A stretch of 64,000 nucleotides of DNA from Cyanophora paradoxa CCMP329 (Eukaryota > Plantae > Glaucophyta): the NCBI GenBank assembly GCA_004431415.1, contig QPMI01000181.1, positions 26,299 to 90,298 of the forward strand. Reading direction: 5' to 3'. Below are positions 1 to 9,708 of this stretch, piece after piece; position 1 is the stretch's first letter; each line of letters begins with the position of its first letter. The notes beneath the pieces were generated by a model. The model searched no databases. It was not told the origin of the DNA and saw only the letters and a list, made by a program, of their open reading frames with translations. Position numbers and translations under genes: made by a program.

Positions 1-1074
1 ACTTCTTCTAATGTGGTTCAAGAATGGACAGCACCTTTAACGGCATCGAATGTAGTTCAAGAGTGGATAGCACCATTGACTGCATCGAATGTAGTTCAGG
101 AATGGATTGGACCTTTAACAGCATCGAATGTGGTTCAAGAGTGGATTGCGCCATTAACTGCATCGAATGTGGTTCAAGAGTGGATAGCACCTTTAACAGC
201 ATCAAATGTGGTTCAGGAATGGATATCAGATTACTTACCTCTCACAGGAGGGACACTGTCAAGTAATCTTACCATCTCGGGTAATCTCAAAGTGTCAAGC
301 AACATTCAATTAGGAACTCATGGGACGGTTTTAGATGTGACTTATGACACACCCTATTATCCTATCACATCCAACACTGACCCTGCATTTACAATTCCGA
401 ATTGTCTTATAGCTGCAAAACCATCTGGCTATGCCCATCTACAAAATGGGCATGGAACAACGATCACCAACCGAGCAACATTGGCTGTTCCATTCATTCC
501 ACAATTTTTTATGACTGGTTCCTCACGGGAATCATACTATAAAATAAATCCATTACTAAATAACCAACTTACTTTGAAAGCATCTGACAACCCCAATTCA
601 TCCATTCATTTGTTTTCAAACAGAAATGATACTGTGGATTGGAGTGAGGGAATAACAATATTTAGTGTGTGTAGTGTGAGGTCACTTACATTGGTCCATG
701 CAGTGTTTGGCGTGTTTAATTATAATGTGCATGAAGTAAGGTATGGCACACACATAGATTGGTTTGTGAACCCACCTGTTTGCAAATGGGGCATGAATAG
801 ATATGTCCATGTTGCTGATGGGGTTAACATGCAATATGGAACACCAACATATAGTAATCTCCCAACTGTCTATATGCCTTATGAGGAATATGCAAATTAC
901 AAATTTGCATACTGGGACACAACCATTACTTCAAACAGCATATCATATTCAATGAATGGGAAGCATTTAGGAACTGTTGCTGGTAACTGGCTTCCACCAT
1001 CATCATTTAATAATTTAGGACCTGCAAATATTGGGGAGAGTTTGCAGAACTACTTGTTTTCAATAGAGCCTTGA
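1..1074 (+). CDS. Fibre/adhesin protein segment 1 (open from window start; 13-aa repeats, YLPLTGGT motif, LamG/concanavalin-like module); continues into the next ORF by a -1 shift
   Basis: Frame open from base 1 (TSSNVVQEW...). The -1 frame at 1035-1070 reads GEFAELLVFNRAL, matching GEYIIFNRAL of the second module. Confidence 0.7.
   Translation, partial: TSSNVVQEWTAPLTASNVVQEWIAPLTASNVVQEWIGPLTASNVVQEWIAPLTASNVVQEWIAPLTASNVVQEWISDYLPLTGGTLSSNLTISGNLKVSSNIQLGTHGTVLDVTYDTPYYPITSNTDPAFTIPNCLIAAKPSGYAHLQNGHGTTITNRATLAVPFIPQFFMTGSSRESYYKINPLLNNQLTLKASDNPNSSIHLFSNRNDTVDWSEGITIFSVCSVRSLTLVHAVFGVFNYNVHEVRYGTHIDWFVNPPVCKWGMNRYVHVADGVNMQYGTPTYSNLPTVYMPYEEYANYKFAYWDTTITSNSISYSMNGKHLGTVAGNWLPPSSFNNLGPANIGESLQNYLFSIEP
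8..228 (+). repeat. 39-bp coding tandem repeat (SNVVQEWIAPLTA), about 5.5 copies
   Basis: Repeated aatgtggttcaagagtggatagcacctttaacagcatc units. Confidence 0.9.
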
Positions 1075-2000
1075 CCGAGATTGAGAAGCAACAGGTGAGG
1101 TATTATATTCAGCAGATGTATGGATTTCCTATAACTCAACCTCTTTACTATCCTGATAATATGCGAATATCAGCAAATTATCTCTATCTAAACAACTTAC
1201 ACATTGGTTCAAATGCTATCATTCCAAACTATACCACATCAAATGTGGTTCAAGGTTGGATACAGAACCACACACCTGCGTGGTCAAATATCACAGATAA
1301 ACCATTAACTTTTGCTCATGATGCTCATTCTCACACAAAGTCAGAGATAACAGATTTCGCCCATTCTCACACAAAGTCAGAGATTACAGATTTTGCACAC
1401 ACCCATTTATGGGCAGATCTCACAGACAAACCGCTCACGTTTACTCCTTCTGCGCACACTCACACAAAATCACAAATAACAGATTTTGCCCATTCTCATA
1501 CGAAGTCAGAGATTACAGATTTTGCACACACCCATTTATGGGCAGATCTCACAGACAAACCGCTCACGTTTACTCCTTCTGCGCACACTCACACAAAGTC
1601 TCAAATTACAGATTTCGCCCATTCTCATACAAAGTCAGAGATAACAGACTTTGCCCACACTCATTTATGGAATGACATCACAGACAAACCATCAACGTTT
1701 GCCCCTTCTGCGCACACTCATGATTACTTGCCTCTCACAGGAGGAACAATTTCCTCAAATCTTACGATTTCATCCAACTTGAATGTTATAGGAAAAATTC
1801 AAATTGGAGACAAAAATACAAACATTGATGTATACTATGACGCACCCTATTATCCTGTTACTTCTAATACAGACCCCGCTTTTGCCATACCAGATTGCCT
1901 CTTAACAATAAGATTAGATGTTGTCCCTGTCGGCATAAACATCAGTCACGCCTTTATTGCAAATAGAGCAACTACGGCAATTCCCTTTATTTCCGGGTAA
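1071..2000 (+). CDS. Fibre protein segment 2 (His-x-His phage-tail-like repeats, second YLPLTGGT module start)
   Basis: HTHTKSQITDFA and HLWADLTDKPLTF repeats. YDAPYYPVTSNTDPAFAIPDCL parallels YDTPYYPITSNTDPAFTIPNCL in segment 1. Confidence 0.7.
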   Translation: MTEIEKQQVRYYIQQMYGFPITQPLYYPDNMRISANYLYLNNLHIGSNAIIPNYTTSNVVQGWIQNHTPAWSNITDKPLTFAHDAHSHTKSEITDFAHSHTKSEITDFAHTHLWADLTDKPLTFTPSAHTHTKSQITDFAHSHTKSEITDFAHTHLWADLTDKPLTFTPSAHTHTKSQITDFAHSHTKSEITDFAHTHLWNDITDKPSTFAPSAHTHDYLPLTGGTISSNLTISSNLNVIGKIQIGDKNTNIDVYYDAPYYPVTSNTDPAFAIPDCLLTIRLDVVPVGINISHAFIANRATTAIPFISG

Positions 2001-2035
2001 CCTTCCCATGGTCAGGATACAACACAATAACTCAA

Positions 2036-3607
2036 TTGAGATCTGATTACAATAACCGAAACATTGCCCAACAACCTACTTATTCATATACAAGCCGGGA
2101 ATTTGGAATGCCGTATCCCGTAACTGTGGATTGGTCAAAAGGTATCACCATCTTCTTTGCAGGTTCTTATAGATTTTGGGGACCGTGGGTAGATCTCTTA
2201 AATTTTAGTTCACCAGATGGAACTAATAAAGTATCCTTTGGGACAACAGGTAGCAGTATGGGTATACATTCTTATACAAGCAATGGTGTGACTTACCCAG
2301 CAGCACACTTAAATTATCCCACATCGTATTCTGAGTTGTCGCCGAATCATTGGGACTTTACAGTTTCTTCAAATGTCTGCACTTTCGGATTTAACGGACA
2401 AGATTTAGGCACAGTCATTACAGAAGTGGATTATCTTCCACCTTCCACTTTTAGTAGGATGGGTGTTGCCTATTTCATTACGGCAGTAGGGGAATATATT
2501 ATATTCAACAGAGCATTGACATTTGATGAAAGGCAAAAAGTGAGATATTATATGCAAGATTATTTTGGCTTTCCAAAAAAGCAAACAATCGTTATTCCTG
2601 ATAATCTACGCATTTCTGCTGAAAATGTTCATATTAGAAATTTAATCGTTTCTTCAAATGCAAGCATTCCAAACTATACCACATCAAATGTGGTTCAAGG
2701 TTGGATACAGAACCACACACCTGCGTGGTCAAATATCACAGACAAACCGTTAACGTTTGCTCCTGATGTTCATACTCACACAAAAGACCAAATATCAGAC
2801 TTTTCCCATTCTCATTTATGGAATGACATCACAGACAAACCGTTAACCTTTGCTCCTGCTGCCCATTCTCATTTATGGAACGACATCACCGATAAACCAT
2901 TAACCTTTGCTCCTGATGCTCATTCTCATGCATGGACAACCATTACAGGTAAACCATTAACCTTTGCTCCTGATGCTCACACTCACACAAAGTCTCAAAT
3001 AACAGACTTCGCCCACAATCATTTATGGGCGGACATCACAGACAAACCGTTAGCGTTCACTCCTACTACTCACACTCACACAAAGTCTCAAATTACTGAT
3101 TTTGCCCACACTCATTTATGGGCGGACATCACAGACAAACCGTTAACATTTGCTCCTGCTGCTCACTCTCATTTATGGGCGGACATCACAGACAAACCAT
3201 TAACATTTGCACCTGCTGCTCATACTCATGATTGGATAGGTATTACAAATAAACCTTTGCTGTTTCCGCCCGATGCTCATACACACCCTTGGAGTAGTAT
3301 AACAGAAAAACCATTAACATTTCCGGCAACAGCTCACACTCATTTATGGAATGATATTACAGACAAACCAACATTTGCAACTGTTGCGACAACCGGAAAT
3401 TATGATGATTTAATTAACAAGCCAACATACACAGCGCCCACAAATTTTGACGCTACAAGTATTATTTCCACAGATCGCACAGGTGATTGGAGAAATTACA
3501 ACGGAGGAATATTGACAGGGGACACAAATACTTGGGCGAACACATGGGCTGCTTCTGATGAAGATTGTAGTAGCTGTAAAATGTATTGGAATGTCCAACA
3601 GGAATGA
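2036..3607 (+). CDS. Fibre protein segment 3 (second lectin-like module, long HxH repeat shaft, FATVATTGNYDDLINKP motif)
   Basis: TVDWSKGITIF and EYIIFNRALT duplicate segment 1. Many HLWxDITDKPLTFAPxAH repeats. Confidence 0.7.
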   Translation: MRSDYNNRNIAQQPTYSYTSREFGMPYPVTVDWSKGITIFFAGSYRFWGPWVDLLNFSSPDGTNKVSFGTTGSSMGIHSYTSNGVTYPAAHLNYPTSYSELSPNHWDFTVSSNVCTFGFNGQDLGTVITEVDYLPPSTFSRMGVAYFITAVGEYIIFNRALTFDERQKVRYYMQDYFGFPKKQTIVIPDNLRISAENVHIRNLIVSSNASIPNYTTSNVVQGWIQNHTPAWSNITDKPLTFAPDVHTHTKDQISDFSHSHLWNDITDKPLTFAPAAHSHLWNDITDKPLTFAPDAHSHAWTTITGKPLTFAPDAHTHTKSQITDFAHNHLWADITDKPLAFTPTTHTHTKSQITDFAHTHLWADITDKPLTFAPAAHSHLWADITDKPLTFAPAAHTHDWIGITNKPLLFPPDAHTHPWSSITEKPLTFPATAHTHLWNDITDKPTFATVATTGNYDDLINKPTYTAPTNFDATSIISTDRTGDWRNYNGGILTGDTNTWANTWAASDEDCSSCKMYWNVQQE

Positions 3608-4581
3608 AATCTTGTTATATCTATTATGCTTGTCATTACAATTGTAGATACTTTGATGTGGTGGGAATTTATCCTCCAACAACTGTGTATACATATTTAC
3701 GAGTAAATGCCTATTCTACTGCAATCGACCCATCAAAGGAATTCAAACAGTATGTTGGAATAAATTGTGAAGGACTAACCAAAGTTGGTGTTCATGGACA
3801 GAAAGGAAGAATTTATTTACCCGGTCCAATTGCTGTTGGATGGAGCAAAAACCCTGCTGTAACTTCACACAGTGGTTACTGTCATTGGGATAATATCTTC
3901 GGAAAACCAACAGCTTCAACATCTGTCGGTCCTCACTCACACAGCAAAGCAGATATCACAGATTTTGCACATACTCACACAAAGGCAAATATTACAGATT
4001 TTGCCCATACTCACACTAAATCAGAAATCTCAGATTTGCCTTCTTTTGATCCATTCACAGCCAATACGATCACAGCAAATAATACTATGTATGTAGGATC
4101 GGGTTCAATAGTAACTCCTGCATCACCCACAAACCAAGAAACATGGTTCTTCCACAATTCCGCAAACTTTTATGATAAAACACTGCTCTGTCGTGGAAAT
4201 GCTTATGCAAGAGCATTTTATGCGATGAATGCAGGAACCACAAACACAATCAGCCAAGTTCCATCTTGGTATGATATAGAAAGACGTTTCAAATCAGGAA
4301 AATATCAAGCCACAAGTGGTGTTATAAGCGCGGGTCAAACAACACAGCATGCATATGTTTTATATTGGGACCCACCTTTTTACACTCAGACACCTGTTGT
4401 AAATGCCACACTTCAAGGAACTCCTGCAACAAACCCAGGGGATGTAGATTTTAGAATTGGAATCTCAAACTCCACAGCTAACTACACAACAATCTATGTG
4501 ACATTCATAGCATCCCCTACTCTATCTGAAAGTCGAAGTATCACATGCACTATCCATTGGACATGTCATGGTATACCATAA
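3586..4581 (+). CDS. Fibre protein segment 4, C-terminal (HxH repeats, putative head domain)
   Basis: Same HTHTKANITDFA repeats. The C-terminus FYTQTPVVNATL...IHWTCHG resembles small beta-sandwich fibre-tip domains (inference). Confidence 0.65.
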   Translation: MECPTGMKSCYIYYACHYNCRYFDVVGIYPPTTVYTYLRVNAYSTAIDPSKEFKQYVGINCEGLTKVGVHGQKGRIYLPGPIAVGWSKNPAVTSHSGYCHWDNIFGKPTASTSVGPHSHSKADITDFAHTHTKANITDFAHTHTKSEISDLPSFDPFTANTITANNTMYVGSGSIVTPASPTNQETWFFHNSANFYDKTLLCRGNAYARAFYAMNAGTTNTISQVPSWYDIERRFKSGKYQATSGVISAGQTTQHAYVLYWDPPFYTQTPVVNATLQGTPATNPGDVDFRIGISNSTANYTTIYVTFIASPTLSESRSITCTIHWTCHGIP

Positions 4582-4630
4582 TTAACTCACAGATCGCTTT
4601 ATTTTTCTAATCTTCTTAGTAAAAGAAGCA

Positions 4631-5476
4631 ATGGGTGAATACAACCGAGTCCAATTACCGGTTTACGCATTGGGTGCGCCCGCAATTCATTTCAGACAAC
4701 ATGAAGTATCCGATGAGATTCGTGGTATGGAATCAACAGAACGCGCAAACTCAGGAAATGCGTTCGATAAAAACAGTGTGATTCGCGTAAAAGAACTACG
4801 AGCCGATAAGAATTCGGGTGTGGTAAAAACAACTCAATTATTGGTTACAAATGCGAATTTTCAATCAGCAAACGGAGAACCCGATGCGTATGGTGTAGAT
4901 ATCAAAGCATTCCAATTCGACAATACGCGAGCCGCCGCCGTTATCCGATCAGGAGGCGCTGTTATTGGTGGTGGATGCCGAGTATCCGGAATGCTTGGCT
5001 CTTCTGCTGCGTTTAACGATATTCCGGACACCTTACCTGAACATGCAGATAATCCCCAACGAATGCGTATGTTTCTTCCATGTGGAGATTCCCCATATGC
5101 TTTTGCTATCATACGAGCAAATGTAAATATAAATGATGCTACCCAACCCCAAGGTATTGACGGACCTTGGAAAATGGCTGATCAACTTTTACCGAAAGCG
5201 ATTTACTCCATGTGTCGCTCTCAGAATGGAGGTGTAGAAGGATATACATTCATTGTTCAAGCGGTAGGTCATGGAGGGCGTGGATGGGTTATAAGAAATC
5301 CTGCAACACAACCCAACACTTTTGATTTTTGGGCATCTGAGGTTGGAGGTTATGATATTATGATTTATGGATATCGTAATGATGAGGCGGCATGGGCTGT
5401 TGCTAACTGCATAAATCCCGATGCTCAACTATCGAATTTCTATAATGAACCATACCCCGAAGATCCCGTCCCATAA
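4631..5476 (+). CDS. 281-aa viral structural/fibre-associated protein (paralog A)
   Basis: Intact ORF. SGGAVIGGGCRVSG fibre-type motif; C-terminal LPKAIYSMC...VQAVGHGGRGW...YDIMIYGYRND resembles a C-terminal domain common on viral fibre proteins. Confidence 0.75.
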   Translation: MGEYNRVQLPVYALGAPAIHFRQHEVSDEIRGMESTERANSGNAFDKNSVIRVKELRADKNSGVVKTTQLLVTNANFQSANGEPDAYGVDIKAFQFDNTRAAAVIRSGGAVIGGGCRVSGMLGSSAAFNDIPDTLPEHADNPQRMRMFLPCGDSPYAFAIIRANVNINDATQPQGIDGPWKMADQLLPKAIYSMCRSQNGGVEGYTFIVQAVGHGGRGWVIRNPATQPNTFDFWASEVGGYDIMIYGYRNDEAAWAVANCINPDAQLSNFYNEPYPEDPVP

Positions 5477-5495
5477 TTATGTTTCGATATATTAA

Positions 5496-6339
5496 ATGGC
5501 TGCACCTGCACCACCTGAACGCATCTTAACTGCGCAACTATCGTTAGCTGCGCCCGCAAACCACGTATTACAGCATGCTATTATCGATAATATCGATGGT
5601 CTCGAATCCACAGAAATCGCACCAACTCTCAATACCTTCGGTGATACTCATATGCTGAGACTGAGAGAGTTGCGATGTGACACCAACAGTGGAGTGGTGA
5701 AAACAACGAGACTTCTTGTAACAAATGCGAACTTCAACGCTCATTATGGAGATCCCGACAGTTACAATGATGATAATAAGGTTACCAACTTTGCTTACGA
5801 AGCAAGAAGGGCGCAATTAAATGTAGATCCGGAGGCGCTTATATTGGGGACGGACTAAGAGTTGGTGGTATCATTGGAGCGCCTCTAATCGTAAATGACC
5901 AACCCAATCCTGATGATGAAAACACGAGAATTAGAACGTATTGCCCGGGTATGAATGAACCTTACATTATTAAAATAAACACGATTATAATAAACCTGCA
6001 AACTGCCGTAATTGACATAATAGAACCGCTGGGAAACCATTACAGATATACCGAAAAGCTACCTGCGGATATTTATGCATTATGTAGGAGAACCGATGTA
6101 GCAAGACCACGTATTACAGTTCAAGTAGTCCCCGTCGATAATTTTGGTCTTGCTTTCCATTCATTGCCTCTTTTGGATACGCAAGATGATGAATATATAA
6201 TTAGGGCAACACAACAAGGAACATTCACGGTTATTATGTATGCCGAAAGAAACGATGCAATCGCAAGAGGAAACCGCTATGGTCAATATCTAACCACAAA
6301 TCTCTATAATCCATCGGCGGTAGCGATCCGCTACCATAA
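5496..6339 (+). CDS. Paralog B of the 281-aa protein, with two single-base frameshifts (~5825, ~6324)
   Basis: RELRCDTNSGVVKTTRLLVTNANF matches KELRADKNSGVVKTTQLLVTNANF. The shifted frames give RSGGAYIGDGLRVGG and the end DPLP* (paralog A ends DPVP*). The repaired length is 846 nt, identical to paralog A. Confidence 0.72.
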
Positions 6340-6360
6340 ATCTACGGTATATATAGAGGA

Positions 6361-6633
6361 ATGGATGAAAAAACAAGGAGATTTATTGAGTCTGCGATAA
6401 TGGTTCATGGACTTGATAAGTTTGATTACACCGAAACTGTCTATAAAAAGGCGCAAGAGAAGGTATCTGTGAGATGCCTGCAATGTAATAAAGTCTTTCA
6501 GACTTATGGATTTAACCATATAAAGGGGTCAGGATGTAGACAGTGTTCTAAGAAACACTCTCATGCATACAGAAAAAAGACTACATGGGGAATCGTAATA
6601 GAAGAGAAACCGATTATGTTATATTTTGATTAG
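6361..6633 (+). CDS. Stand-alone zinc-ribbon protein (DUF723-like module usually attached to homing endonucleases)
   Basis: FIESAIMVHGLDKFDYTETVY...KVSVRCLQC...F...NHIKGSGCRQC follows the HGxKYDYSKVxY...C..C...NH..G.GC..C pattern. Confidence 0.7.
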   Translation: MDEKTRRFIESAIMVHGLDKFDYTETVYKKAQEKVSVRCLQCNKVFQTYGFNHIKGSGCRQCSKKHSHAYRKKTTWGIVIEEKPIMLYFD

Positions 6634-6779
6634 AGTTTCGAAAGAGAAATGAGCATCTTTCCGCATTTACCTTTGGTTATTATGCAAGTATCAAAGCAAT
6701 TCGGACATGTCTTATGATAATGGAGCATTATGATATCGACCAACTCATACGGAAATACTTTCGCTAAGATGGTTCGCAT
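6630..6779 (-). CDS. 49-aa Cys-containing mini-protein (below the ORF-track cutoff)
   Basis: ATG at 6779 to TAA at 6630 gives MRTILAKVFPYELVDIIMLHYHKTCPNCFDTCIITKGKCGKMLISLSKL. It fills the gap, and its stop overlaps the stop of the convergent ORF. Confidence 0.5.
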   Translation of the reverse strand: MRTILAKVFPYELVDIIMLHYHKTCPNCFDTCIITKGKCGKMLISLSKL

Positions 6780-6819
6780 CCTACCAATTTCGTTTTTTAT
6801 TTTTCTATATAATTCATAA

Positions 6820-7218
6820 ATGAATCATCGCGGTTCCCATGTAATGTTAGATTACAAGTTCAATCATCCATTGATGGTGGGATTGGAAAACTTGGAGACC
6901 ACAACAACGTGGTTAATGCAATTTTTACAATCTATTATACAAGAGCAAGGTATCCGAGTTGTTCACAAGCATTGCGAGATTTTCGATGGTGGTGTTTCGC
7001 CACCGGGTTTTGCGATGGTATTACTTCTTGATGAGAGCCATTGCACCGCTCATTGTTACTCTGACCAAGGAATGTTAGCGATTGATGTATTCACTTGCGG
7101 AACCGAAGCGCAAAGTAAGACCTCCGTAATATCTAAATTGATAGATGAGAGAATAACAGAGATCTTTTCAGGGTTGGAGAAAGCGGAGAAGCAGATAGCA
7201 GCGCGATTTCCGAGTTAA
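6820..7218 (+). CDS. speD: Prokaryotic-type (short, class 1) S-adenosylmethionine decarboxylase proenzyme homolog
   Basis: N-terminal GxH..LD, PxG...LLLDESH (autocleavage Ser giving the pyruvoyl group), H in TAHCY, and AIDVFTCG. The 132-aa length is typical of SpeD/SpeH. Confidence 0.85.
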   Translation: MNHRGSHVMLDYKFNHPLMVGLENLETTTTWLMQFLQSIIQEQGIRVVHKHCEIFDGGVSPPGFAMVLLLDESHCTAHCYSDQGMLAIDVFTCGTEAQSKTSVISKLIDERITEIFSGLEKAEKQIAARFPS

Positions 7219-7266
7219 TCACACTGAGATTTTGAAGAAATATAACATGTCTTATTGAATATCGTC

Positions 7267-7541
7267 AGGTGTAACAGGTGTAACAGGTAAATCCCAAACT
7301 TCGCTCCTAGGGAGGCCAAAAACCCAAAACTTTGGGATTTACCTGTTACACCTGTTACACCTTGGGATTCACCTGTTACATCTATCAAACAAAGCATTAA
7401 TATATTCGATTCCTTACATTGATTATAGTGTCATGTAACAGGTGTAACAGGTGTTTCCCAAACTTTCCTCATAGGAGATGAAAAATCCAAAACTTTGGGA
7501 TTTACCTGTTACACCCGTTACACCTTGGGATTCACCTGTTA
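7267..7541. repeat. Two copies of an iteron-containing inverted-repeat unit (TGTAACAGG/CCTGTTACA); origin-like
   Basis: Perfect 32-bp inverted repeat 7267-7298/7331-7362 with a 32-nt loop; degenerate second copy at ~7434-7541. Confidence 0.85.
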
Positions 7542-7550
7542 CACATTGAT

Positions 7551-8335
7551 TATCGACTGTTTAATTGGACATGTTACACTTGAAACACAATTTTGATACA
7601 GTAAAAAACAGAATCCAATCTTATCAATTGTTTAATTGGACATAATGCAACTCTGGGGTCATTTTTGATACAGTAAAAATCTCAACCGAATCTCATCGAT
7701 TGTTTAATTGGACATAATGCAGTAACCATCTCTTCCAACAAAATACGCCGCAATCTCATCAATTGTTTAATTGGACATAATGCAGTAACCATCTCTTCCA
7801 ACAAAATACGCCGCAATCTCATCGATTGTTTAATTGGACATAATGCAGTAACCATCTCTTCCAACAAAATACGCCGCAATCTCATCGATTGTTTAATTGG
7901 ACATAAGGCAGTAACCATCTAATCCAACAAAATACGCCGCAATCTCAACGATTGTTTAATTGGACATAATGCAGTAAGGAGTGAATTATTTTCATCCGAT
8001 ATTTCATCGATTGTTTAATTGGACATAATGCAGTAACGAGTGAATTATTTTCATCCGATATCTCATCGATTGTTTAATTGGACATAATGCAGTAACAAGT
8101 GAATTATTTTCAACCGATATATCATCGATTGTTTAATTGGACATAATGCAGTAACCATCTCTTCCAACAAAATACGCTGCAATCTCATCGATTGTTCAAT
8201 TGGACATAATGCAGTAACGAGTGAATTATTTTCAACCGATATATCATCGATTGTTTAATTGGACATAATGCAGTAACGAGTGAATTATTTTCAACCGATA
8301 TTTCATCGATTGTTCAATTGGACATAATGCAACTC
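7551..8335. repeat. 13-copy array of a conserved core (catcgattgtttaattggacataatgcagtaac) with three recurring linker types
   Basis: The TGTTTAATTGGACA core starts at 7558, 7629, 7701, 7764, 7827, 7890, 7953, 8012, 8071, 8130, 8193, 8252 and 8311. Periods are 71,72,63,63,63,63,59,59,59,63,59,59. Confidence 0.92.
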
Positions 8336-8380
8336 TGTGTGAATTTTTGCGATTTCCGATAGAATGGGCGGTGGACTACT

Positions 8381-8628
8381 TCAATCGTGATTATATCAAT
8401 CGTGATTATATCATAAATTTATGTTCCTTCAATCGAGATTATATCAAATTTGCATAAAATACATATTAATCGCGTTTATATCAATAAATTAATCGATATT
8501 ATATCAATTGTTTAATCGAGATTATTAAAATTTAATATAAAAATACATATTTATCGATTAATTTATACATATTTATTAACATGAAAATACATATTTATCG
8601 ATTAATTATACAAATTTATTTAAGAAAA
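8381..8628. repeat. Very AT-rich sub-terminal stretch with repeated AATCGNGATT-like palindromes
   Basis: tcaatcgtgattata x2, aatcgagattat variants, aaaatacatatttatcgattaatt x2. Confidence 0.75.
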
Positions 8629-8713
8629 ACACATAAAGAAATACAAATTTAAATCCAGGAGCGAAGCGCGAAGCGCGTAGCGGAGGGATTTAAATTTGTA
8701 TTTCTTTATGTGT
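8629..8713. other. Terminal stem-loop: perfect 28-bp inverted repeat with a GC-rich loop
   Basis: acacataaagaaatacaaatttaaatcc (8629-8656) is the reverse complement of 8686-8713. The loop contains GCGAAGC GCGAAGC GCGTAGC. Confidence 0.92.
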
Positions 8714-9496
8714 AACCCAATTCGTTAACCAAACTCGAAACTCAAGAAGTTATTACAGAGTGCGCATTCGCATGCGCTAGCGCTGCAGCTAATATTTATT
8801 GTCCGGCGACAATGCAAATACTCACCTTCAACTGGCCGGCGGCAGGTGCGACTCTGACGGGAGACCTGTCAAGGAGGAGAAGCGGCTTGTAAACGAGCTG
8901 TACATCAAATCGAACAATCTTGCCGTCCTCGTCATCGCAGAGTCCGCGGCGCTGGTCCTCCTGCTTGCTGTGAATAATTTTTGGGTGAATCCATCGCTGA
9001 ACGCGAGGGAATCTGGGATTTCAAATGCGCTGGCCGGCAAGAATAAAGAAGCAATCATGATATACAAAGGCGAGATATGCAGTCTCCTTGCCTCAAATGG
9101 TTCGTTACCAGCCGGCTGATGTTAATAATCGCGTGCTTAATTTTCATGGTAGACGAGGTTCGCGATGAGTTGGCTTCGGAATTTACGCGTCTCAAGATAC
9201 AGACGGCAATGAAATACAAGGATGAATATCGAGTGTACGAGATCGCCAACTGTCCTCTCCATATGCGTGGCAATATGCACAACGGCAAGATCAAGCCATC
9301 CTCATCGATCGCACCGGTCGACGTTGAAGGTGCCGGAACATATGCAAGGCTACCCCCAGCCCCGGCCATCATAGACAGTAACTACAACGCGTTCGCGTAT
9401 GGTGACCCATCGATCGCGAAGAACGTCCGGCATCGCCCTCATGTTAGTGGACCCTCTGCAAATCCTGACCAGCTGCAGCCTCATCATGACGAATAG
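8714..9496 (+). pseudogene. 3' part of a spliced gene of unknown function, apparently truncated by the viral element
   Basis: Putative exons 8714-8759, 8846-8941, 9008-9069 and 9153-9496 join in one frame (PNSLTKLETQEVITE CDSDGRPVKEEKRLV...IAE ESGISN...YK DEVRDEL...HHDE*) using host-style donors gtgcgc/gtccgc/gcgaga. Confidence 0.45.
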
Positions 9497-9708
9497 ACCA
9501 ACGGTAGTACTAGTTCGAGTTCAGTGTATTCCTGCACACCTGCATGCACACAATCGACGATCTTCTAGGACGACCATCAATTTTGTTGTTCCTGCAGATA
9601 TGTGCTCGCAGCCTCGTGAGCTGTAGCGCTTCTAGATCTGATGTAAATCGACTCGCGATCAGCTATTGCAACTTGTGGATGTGTGTGTGTTGTTTGTTGG
9701 GTAAAGGA

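What the first reader, a model, noticed from the sequence alone, without database searches (positions are those of the whole stretch)
6820..7218. Bacterial-type SAM decarboxylase as the last gene of an endogenous eukaryotic virus
Seen: intact ESH cleavage site, His and DVFTCG motifs, with no spermidine synthase in the window. Known: such pyruvoyl enzymes occur in prokaryotes, phages and some giant viruses, and some homologs act on arginine or ornithine. Decarboxylated SAM cannot serve as the normal methyl donor, and phage T3 destroys SAM to evade host systems. Inference: a lone AdoMetDC in a small integrating virus could drain SAM to blunt host methylation-based silencing or a helper virus's methyltransferases, or supply polyamine/aminopropyl groups for packaging or DNA modification.
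Basis: partly seen in the sequence, partly recalled or inferred. Interest (0 to 1): 0.8.

Follow-up and report, generated by a model that had tools for sequence, protein, structure and literature searches.

The report
Arginine decarboxylase in an algal provirus
A small virus inserted in many copies in an alga-like host carries an intact gene of the SAM-decarboxylase family that likely acts on arginine rather than SAM, so it would feed polyamine production during virus growth instead of draining the cell's methyl donor; such genes were already tallied, without comment, in related viruses.

Summary
The ORF is real: 132 aa, class 1b SpeD fold, with the Ser/His/Cys needed for self-cleavage. It is the last gene before the hairpin end of a multi-copy, low-GC integrated virus, probably polinton-like (PLV). 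The SAM-drain reading is not supported. The protein belongs to the branch whose assayed members (Poseidoniales, Gimesia, two stramenopiles) decarboxylate arginine only (SpeDA; PMC10407285). It lacks the AdoMetDC proline. All 80 best prokaryotic loci carry an agmatine-using SpeY-like gene, and 41 of 44 close long homologs are fused to SpeY or agmatinase, none to spermidine synthase. Its nearest placed relatives are giant-virus genes (46-51% identity), and five PLV-like contigs carry the same branch. Presence in PLVs is not new: supplementary tables list the domain in 66 of 156 glaucophyte PLV elements (PMC12220804) and in a 22-member virophage/PLV cluster (PMC7805220). New here are the substrate call and the giant-virus kinship. 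Activity is untested and the capsid genes lie outside the window.

The parts
6820..7218 (+). SpeD-family pyruvoyl decarboxylase proenzyme, 132 aa, SpeDA (arginine decarboxylase) branch. Predicted cleavage E72|S73; H78 and C93 kept; S81 stands where true AdoMetDCs have Pro.
1..8715 (.). Right part of a low-GC, multi-copy integrated virus-like element (probably a PLV); it runs off the start of the window.
1..4581 (+). Four overlapping fibre-like frames (1-1074, 1014-2000, 1967-3607, 3580-4581) with phage-tail-type repeats in the middle two; possibly fewer genes split in this assembly (the breaks were not checked against reads).
4631..5476 (+). 281-aa protein of no known family; its N-terminal domain is shared with proteins ending in a C1q domain, so it is likely a fibre or spike.
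5496..6400 (+). Paralog of the 4631 gene, in two frames in this assembly. Read-derived contigs differ by single-base indels near 5808 and 6310, so the breaks are likely assembly errors.
6361..6633 (+). 90-aa zinc-ribbon ORF like the N-terminus of HNH-type endonucleases; similar to a giant-virus ORF in L008.
7267..7525 (.). Two related long hairpins (7267-7362 and 7434-7525) just downstream of the stop codon.
   Evidence: z -10.8 and -5.4
7550..8331 (.). Sub-terminal tandem array: 13 copies of a 21-nt core spaced 59-72 nt apart.
8629..8713 (.). Terminal palindrome of 85 nt at the element-host border.
   Evidence: z -11.2, 0 of 200 shuffles

Best explanation
The gene encodes a SpeD-family protein that is predicted to cleave itself at Ser73 into a pyruvoyl enzyme and likely decarboxylates L-arginine to agmatine, which host enzymes would turn into putrescine and higher polyamines when the provirus reactivates. 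Shown: intact ORF, catalytic residues, fold, place in the SpeDA branch, and several variant copies in the host's reads. Inferred: processing and dimer formation by likeness to solved AdoMetDCs; arginine as substrate (about 0.75); exchange with giant viruses, in whose infections a PLV would replicate; and polyamine supply for translation and genome packaging as the selected benefit (the weakest step). A 132-aa enzyme that makes its own cofactor is a cheap way for a roughly 20-30-kb genome to raise flux at the first step of the pathway.
For: (1) Clade: in a 106-row tree (106 of 325 extracted sequences) the protein lies in a 63-row group, SH-aLRT 100, with Poseidoniales homologs and apart from three assayed phage AdoMetDCs. 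PMC10407285 assayed six members of one clade (Poseidoniales, MG II/III, Gimesia, Solirubrobacter, Nannochloropsis, Tribonema): all were active on arginine, none on ornithine or lysine, and the three of them tested failed to complement E. coli speD. (2) Neighbours: a DHS-like (SpeY) gene lies in 80 of the 80 best genome loci and an agmatinase-family gene in 17 of 80. Of 5 such genomes, 0 have spermidine synthase and 5 have an arginase/agmatinase-family gene. SpeY couples two agmatines (PMC13625781). (3) Fusions: of 52 long homologs, the 44 close ones carry DHS/SpeY (38), agmatinase (3), a methyltransferase only (2) or nothing (1); the 8 distant ones all carry spermidine synthase. (4) Marker: Pro at H+3 in 7 of 7 parsed spermidine-synthase fusions, 0 of 44 close fusions and 0 of 280 sequences with the GF motif; the window has Ser81. 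(5) Selection: of 11 listed base differences among sister copies inside the ORF, 8 are silent singly and 9 when two changes in one codon are read together; none touches S73, H78 or C93, and no indel is listed in the ORF. (6) Viral kin: L112 (51% identity, NCLDV capsid gene in the locus) and the syntenic L113 and L114 (46%) are the best metagenome hits. (7) Homodimer model 0.87 against best control 0.00, contacts agreeing at 96% or more, pLDDT 92; the mark was reached by 20 of 30 solved homodimers and 1 of 23 monomers, and a pass may come from memory of solved AdoMetDC structures.
Against: No viral member of this branch has been assayed in the papers read, and the assayed proteins themselves were not in my trees: I used relatives from the same taxa. 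The window protein is only 40-47% identical over its length to the archaeal homologs and has a long branch (0.5-0.6). Support for its small clade fell from 97-98 to 90-93, and all trees are quick trees on 133-138 columns. The Pro marker is imperfect: the assayed AdoMetDC of phage phiYS40 lacks it, and its position is my inference because Fig. 8 is not held. No partner gene (SpeY, agmatinase, agmatine deiminase, HSS-like) was found in 4 viral records, nor SpeY or agmatinase in 31 viral loci, so the downstream steps must come from the host, whose genome I could not search. Both eukaryotic-virus class 1b enzymes first tested in PMC9992855 were true AdoMetDCs.
Confidence: 0.62

Rival explanations
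1. Arginine decarboxylase used as a weapon: it consumes arginine, or makes agmatine as an inhibitor, to handicap the co-infecting giant virus or a host response.
For: Same substrate evidence as the best explanation. The gene stands alone, with no downstream enzyme in any viral record searched. PLVs are reported to cut giant-virus yield (abstract starts).
Against: Assayed members of the clade are slow: kcat/Km 20-180 per M per s and Km 0.7-3.4 mM, poor for a sink. Giant viruses carry the same gene (L112, L005, L008, L201), which fits a benefit to replication better than an anti-giant-virus role.
Confidence: 0.13
2. True SAM decarboxylase: it converts SAM to decarboxylated SAM, draining the methyl donor or supplying aminopropyl groups.
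For: Family match and intact catalytic residues. Class 1b enzymes of Algavirales viruses were shown to be true AdoMetDCs. One assayed AdoMetDC lacks the marker Pro. Seven relatives are fused to a SAM-type methyltransferase domain (P0179-P0185).
Against: Below the TIGR03330 cut-off. Only 36% identity over 42 residues to the assayed S-PM2 enzyme against 51% over 131 to the giant-virus kin. 0 of 44 close fusions and 0 of 5 kin genomes have spermidine synthase. Over half of PLVs and virophages encode their own DNA methyltransferase (PMC7805220), which a SAM drain would starve.
Confidence: 0.1
3. The viral sub-branch has shifted again, to ornithine or another amino acid.
For: Substrate shifts are frequent in this family. 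The viral sub-clade has lost its usual neighbours and is long-branched. An ornithine enzyme would need no host partner.
Against: The four SpeDC-diagnostic residues (Gln, Thr, Phe, Tyr) appear absent: V67, E72, C79 and A87 at the positions I inferred. Twenty positions are invariant across the window protein and 35 kin that include archaeal homologs.
Confidence: 0.08
4. A passenger picked up from a giant virus at the variable end of the genome, with no present role.
For: Terminal position; no partner gene; neighbouring frames look broken in this assembly.
Against: Mostly silent differences among copies. The two breaks covered by reads look like assembly errors. The domain is in 42% of glaucophyte PLV elements.
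Confidence: 0.07

Closest known systems
SpeDA, the pyruvoyl arginine decarboxylases of the Poseidoniales / Gimesia / Nannochloropsis / Tribonema clade (PMC10407285)
   Same: Fold, catalytic Ser/His/Cys, loss of the AdoMetDC Pro, branch of the tree, 40-47% full-length identity to Poseidoniales homologs.
   Different: Virus-encoded and alone, without speY or speB; nearest kin are giant-virus genes; not assayed.
PF02675 genes tallied in PLVs and virophages (PMC12220804 Table S6; PMC7805220 Tables S1, S6, S7, cluster PC_0120)
   Same: Same domain in the same kind of element: 66 of 156 glaucophyte elements, 72 cryptophyte elements and a 22-member metagenomic cluster.
   Different: Those tables give only the family label (PC_0120 also carries the label DNA methyltransferase); no substrate, origin or role is discussed in the text I read.
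Virus-encoded class 1b AdoMetDC, ADC and ODC (PMC9992855: cyanophage S-PM2, HaV01, pelagiphage HTVC201P)
   Same: Small PLP-independent polyamine enzyme carried by a virus, often alone.
   Different: A different branch. The eukaryotic-virus members assayed were true AdoMetDCs in giant viruses; the ADC was in a phage; no PLV or virophage is mentioned in its supplement.
Palindrome-ended endogenous virophages and PLVs of Halocafeteria seosinensis (10.64898/2026.07.28.741278)
   Same: Low-GC integrated element with a terminal palindrome.
   Different: No decarboxylase is mentioned in that text; this element's capsid and integrase genes were not seen.

Membership tests
Class 1b SpeD family (PF02675) | Profile match over the curated cut-off | tested here: met
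   47.2 bits against 25
Class 1b SpeD family (PF02675) | Ser, His and Cys equivalent to T. maritima S63, H68, C83, and the fold | tested here: met
   S73, H78, C93; model matches 1vr7, TM 0.71
Class 1b SpeD family (PF02675) | Self-cleavage to give a pyruvoyl group | not testable with these tools
   Needs protein
True AdoMetDC | TIGR03330 equivalog cut-off | tested here: not met
   50.1 against 75.65 bits
True AdoMetDC | Conserved Pro that separates AdoMetDC from ADC | tested here: not met
   Ser81; position inferred, checked on fusions; one assayed exception
True AdoMetDC | Link to an aminopropyltransferase | tested here: not met
   0 of 44 close fusions, 0 of 5 kin genomes, 0 of 2 viral records; the rest of this element was not seen
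SpeDA (arginine decarboxylase) | Falls in a clade with assayed SpeDA taxa | tested here: met
   SH-aLRT 99-100 with Poseidoniales homologs; the assayed sequences themselves were not included
SpeDA (arginine decarboxylase) | Cellular relatives tied to agmatine-using genes (speY, speB) | tested here: met
   80 of 80 loci; 41 of 44 fusions
SpeDA (arginine decarboxylase) | Decarboxylates arginine, not SAM | not testable with these tools
   Needs an assay
SpeDC (ornithine decarboxylase) | Four diagnostic residues Gln, Thr, Phe, Tyr | tested here: not met
   V67, E72, C79, A87 at inferred positions; figure not seen
Polinton-like virus | PLV-type major capsid, penton and A32-like ATPase | not testable with these tools
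   Outside the window; no genome held; no related contig found
Polinton-like virus | Integrated, multi-copy, low-GC, fibre genes, terminal repeat | tested here: met
   compare PMC12220804 section 13
Polinton-like virus | Inverted repeats at both ends and a target-site duplication | not testable with these tools
   Only one end is in the window

The most novel reading that the evidence does not exclude
PLVs and virophages have repeatedly swapped a lone, cofactor-free arginine decarboxylase with giant viruses and use it to steer the polyamine or arginine pool of the co-infected cell. That would make it a recurring metabolic control gene of giant-virus parasites, mislabelled as SAM decarboxylase in dozens of glaucophyte and cryptophyte proviruses, and a handle on what PLV accessory genes do.
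Probability: 0.35. Interest if true: 0.68.

Novelty: new member of a known kind. Interest (0 to 1): 0.42.

Why it matters
Small integrating viruses carry few metabolic genes, and what their accessory genes do is largely unknown. This gene recurs in many such elements, so the right substrate matters: arginine points to polyamine supply, SAM would have pointed to evasion of methylation. The question can be settled with a published E. coli complementation and CO2-release assay. It would extend SpeDA from prokaryotes, stramenopiles and one phage to eukaryotic viruses, both giant and small.

Tried and rejected
No whole genome is held, so the element's other genes and the host's agmatine pathway could not be searched. 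Attempts to name the element failed: the 281-aa ORF found no relative in viral contigs, none among 1008 word-index candidates, only Atlas leads under 0.9, 5 hits in the HMMER library, and gave an unusable model (pLDDT 35.6). The array pattern found 0 viral contigs. Expression: no RNA holder was listed and four same-species RNA runs held next to none of the stretch; this is no evidence either way. Run X20 (organism B, kind uncertain) gave 5 shallow contigs and was not interpreted. A single origin for the gene in the window plus five PLV-like contigs was rejected at p-AU 0.027 (test chosen after seeing the first tree); a single origin for the five alone was not rejected (p-AU 0.061). L004, L009 and L020 were not held for genome search. 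The careful tree did not finish. Literature: no paper joined polinton-like with S-adenosylmethionine decarboxylase. and term searches in five papers found no text on a PLV or virophage polyamine enzyme; the decarboxylase in PMC11633385 is phosphatidylserine decarboxylase. My working view that presence in PLVs was unreported was then overturned by two supplements. bioRxiv supplements are closed and a PMC10120064 file was cut; they may hold more. Nothing useful was found on the host's polyamine pathway.

Full report
Observation. The window holds a 132-codon ORF at 6820-7218 on the + strand. It matches PF02675 over the curated cut-off (47.2 bits, E 3e-12) and aligns with the solved Thermotoga and Aquifex AdoMetDC proenzymes across residues 60-111. 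S73, H78 and C93 correspond to the T. maritima S63, H68 and C83 named as essential in PMC10407285. An AlphaFold2 model from a 36-row alignment has pLDDT 92.5 and matches 1vr7 at TM 0.71. A two-copy model scored 0.87 against 0.00 for the best of 3 controls (contacts agreeing at 96% or more, pLDDT 92; mark reached by 20 of 30 solved homodimers and 1 of 23 monomers). That pass may reflect memory of solved relatives. The protein scores 50.1 bits on the true-AdoMetDC model TIGR03330, below its cut-off of 75.65.

The element. GC is 35-43% per kb over bases 1-9000 and 53-77% beyond. Upstream lie fibre-like frames with phage-tail repeats, a paralogous pair whose N-terminal domain recurs in C1q-bearing proteins and a zinc-ribbon ORF. 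Downstream lie two long hairpins, a 13-copy array and an 85-nt palindrome at 8629-8713 (z -11.2). Of 24 runs listed, 19 hold half or more of 3600-7300, all labelled organism A; the 20 holders span 16 studies, one of which may be the source of the window. Three DNA runs laid 262-300 contigs each on this stretch, most at 85-95% identity, so many variant copies exist. A contig matching the window over 1.27-1.28 kb with one gap has 9.5 and 10.6 times the depth of the host-side contig in two runs (538.6 against 56.6; 180.3 against 17); the tool warns that depth is no copy number. In 3 of 3 DNA runs the single-copy contig starts at 8684-8686 and runs past 10060, placing the border near 8715. It overlaps the element by only about 30-32 bases, at the limit of the bridging rule. 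Two frame breaks, near 5808 and 6310, coincide with single-base indels in contigs of all three DNA runs and are likely assembly errors. Capsid, ATPase and integrase genes are not in the window, so PLV is an inference (about 0.75) from these features and from PMC12220804 section 13 and 10.64898/2026.07.28.741278 (passages). Earlier scan notes name the host as the glaucophyte Cyanophora paradoxa and describe 28-kb hairpin-ended PLVs and mriyavirus-like elements in this genome; I did not test either.

Which enzyme. The protein search gave 125 homologs among 147 candidates; the best nine are 46-52% identical and the named ones further down are mostly marine group II archaea. In genomes, 551 of 577 pattern matches encode a relative; 78 of the best 80 carry archaeal titles, largely Poseidoniales. 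PMC10407285 (parts 1-5 of 7 read, figures not held) shows that a clade holding Poseidoniales, marine group II/III, Gimesia, Solirubrobacter, Nannochloropsis and Tribonema proteins decarboxylates arginine and not ornithine or lysine. The three of these tested did not rescue an E. coli speD deletion. Four independent checks place the window protein there. Trees: it lies with Poseidoniales homologs at SH-aLRT 99-100, apart from three assayed phage AdoMetDCs where those were included (quick trees; 106, 48 and 55 rows chosen from about 335). Neighbours: a DHS-like SpeY gene lies in 80 of 80 genome loci and an agmatinase-family gene in 17 of 80; 0 of 5 genomes tested have spermidine synthase and 5 of 5 have an arginase/agmatinase-family gene (incomplete genomes); SpeY uses agmatine (PMC13625781, passages). 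Fusions: of 52 long homologs, 41 of the 44 close ones are joined to SpeY or agmatinase and none to spermidine synthase, while all 8 distant ones are joined to spermidine synthase. Marker: the paper names a Pro that separates AdoMetDC from ADC. Taking it as the Pro three residues after the second His, it is present in 7 of 7 parsed spermidine-synthase fusions and absent from all 44 close fusions, from 280 of 280 GF-motif sequences and from the window (S81). Against this: phiYS40's assayed AdoMetDC also lacks it, the assayed SpeDA sequences were not in my trees, and no viral member of the branch has been assayed in what I read.

Viral distribution. The best metagenome loci, L112-L114 (46-51%), are giant-virus DNA: L112 has an NCLDV capsid gene, and L113 shares its Erv1, RNase III and D5 genes. 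The window protein groups with them (support 97, 98 and 90-93 in the three trees). Five IMG/VR contigs (L004, L006, L009, L011, L020; 4-20 kb) carry a gene of the same branch upstream of an A32-like ATPase and a likely penton-capsid pair; the L009 capsid scores 0.97-0.98 against capsid clusters in the Atlas. Four of the five group with the probable giant-virus contigs L200-L202 (97). One clade for the window plus these five is rejected at p-AU 0.027, but one clade for the five alone is not (0.061). Two or more exchanges between small and giant viruses are therefore likely; the direction is not shown. No partner polyamine gene was found in the 4 viral records searched (spermidine synthase in 2).

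Selection. Of the 40 differences shown (460 more hidden), 11 fall in the ORF. Eight are silent singly and nine when two changes in codon 68 are read together; none touches a catalytic residue and no indel is listed there.

Mechanism. Most likely the proenzyme cleaves at S73, dimerises and converts arginine to agmatine, which host enzymes carry on to putrescine and spermidine while the virus replicates. Polyamine supply is the role argued for viral enzymes of this kind in PMC9992855 (part 1 and passages). The assayed clade members are slow (kcat/Km 20-180 per M per s), which suits supply better than depletion. A SAM drain would also work against the DNA methyltransferases that over half of PLVs and virophages encode (PMC7805220, passage). 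The host steps and the benefit are inferred.

Novelty. Main-text searches found no discussion of such a gene in PLVs or virophages. Supplements do list it. PMC12220804 Table S6 counts PF02675 in 66 of 156 glaucophyte elements, 10 of 177 Cryptomonas borealis, 17 of 57 C. pyrenoidifera and 45 of 706 Rhodomonas lacustris elements, and in none of the other groups. PMC7805220 lists a 22-member cluster across virophages and GKS2-type PLVs. If the host is as earlier notes say, this ORF is probably among those 66. The presence is thus known at table level; the arginine assignment and the giant-virus kinship were not found in print. Verdict: a real, probably functional gene, a new member of the SpeDA kind in a context already tallied but never interpreted; interest 0.42.

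Noticed in passing
P0179-P0185: Seven long proteins join a SpeDA-branch domain to an NNMT/PNMT-type methyltransferase (PF01234), five of them also to a deoxyhypusine-synthase-like domain: a possible pathway to a methylated agmatine or polyamine.
   Followed up: no
window 8629-8713: 85-nt terminal palindrome with a mismatched GC-rich tip. In two runs one contig continues past 8715 with AT-rich element-like sequence instead of host DNA, hinting at end-to-end joined or longer-ended copies.
   Followed up: partly
window 7267-7525: Two related 90-96-nt hairpins built on a short repeated motif directly after the stop codon; possible transcript ends or origin-like blocks.
   Followed up: partly
window 4631-6400: Paralogous pair of about 280 aa with a conserved N-terminal domain that in P0140 and P0141 is followed by a C1q head: a likely swappable fibre-tip family with only 5 hits in the HMMER library.
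   Followed up: partly
L003 9986-10360: A 70.8-kb phage (RecT, YqaJ; 98% complete) carries a SpeDA-branch gene with no agmatinase, SpeY, agmatine deiminase or HSS-like gene.
   Followed up: partly
L196 178-612: The assayed AdoMetDC of Thermus phage phiYS40 lacks the Pro said to be fully conserved in true AdoMetDCs, if my placement of that Pro is right.
   Followed up: partly
L117 94-462: A low-GC, probably giant-virus contig carries an ATG8-like gene near its SpeDA-branch gene; a similar ORF follows the gene in L123.
   Followed up: no
PMC7805220 Table S1, virophage V523K orf16: This virophage homolog shows Gln, Thr and Phe at the SpeDC positions, so it is probably an ornithine decarboxylase; small viruses may sample more than one branch of the family.
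   Followed up: no
window 8716-9700: Single-copy stretch of 45-59% GC between the element end and the 70%-GC host DNA, with a 139-codon ORF on the minus strand (9077-9496) that matched no Pfam family as submitted on the + strand; unexplained.
   Followed up: no
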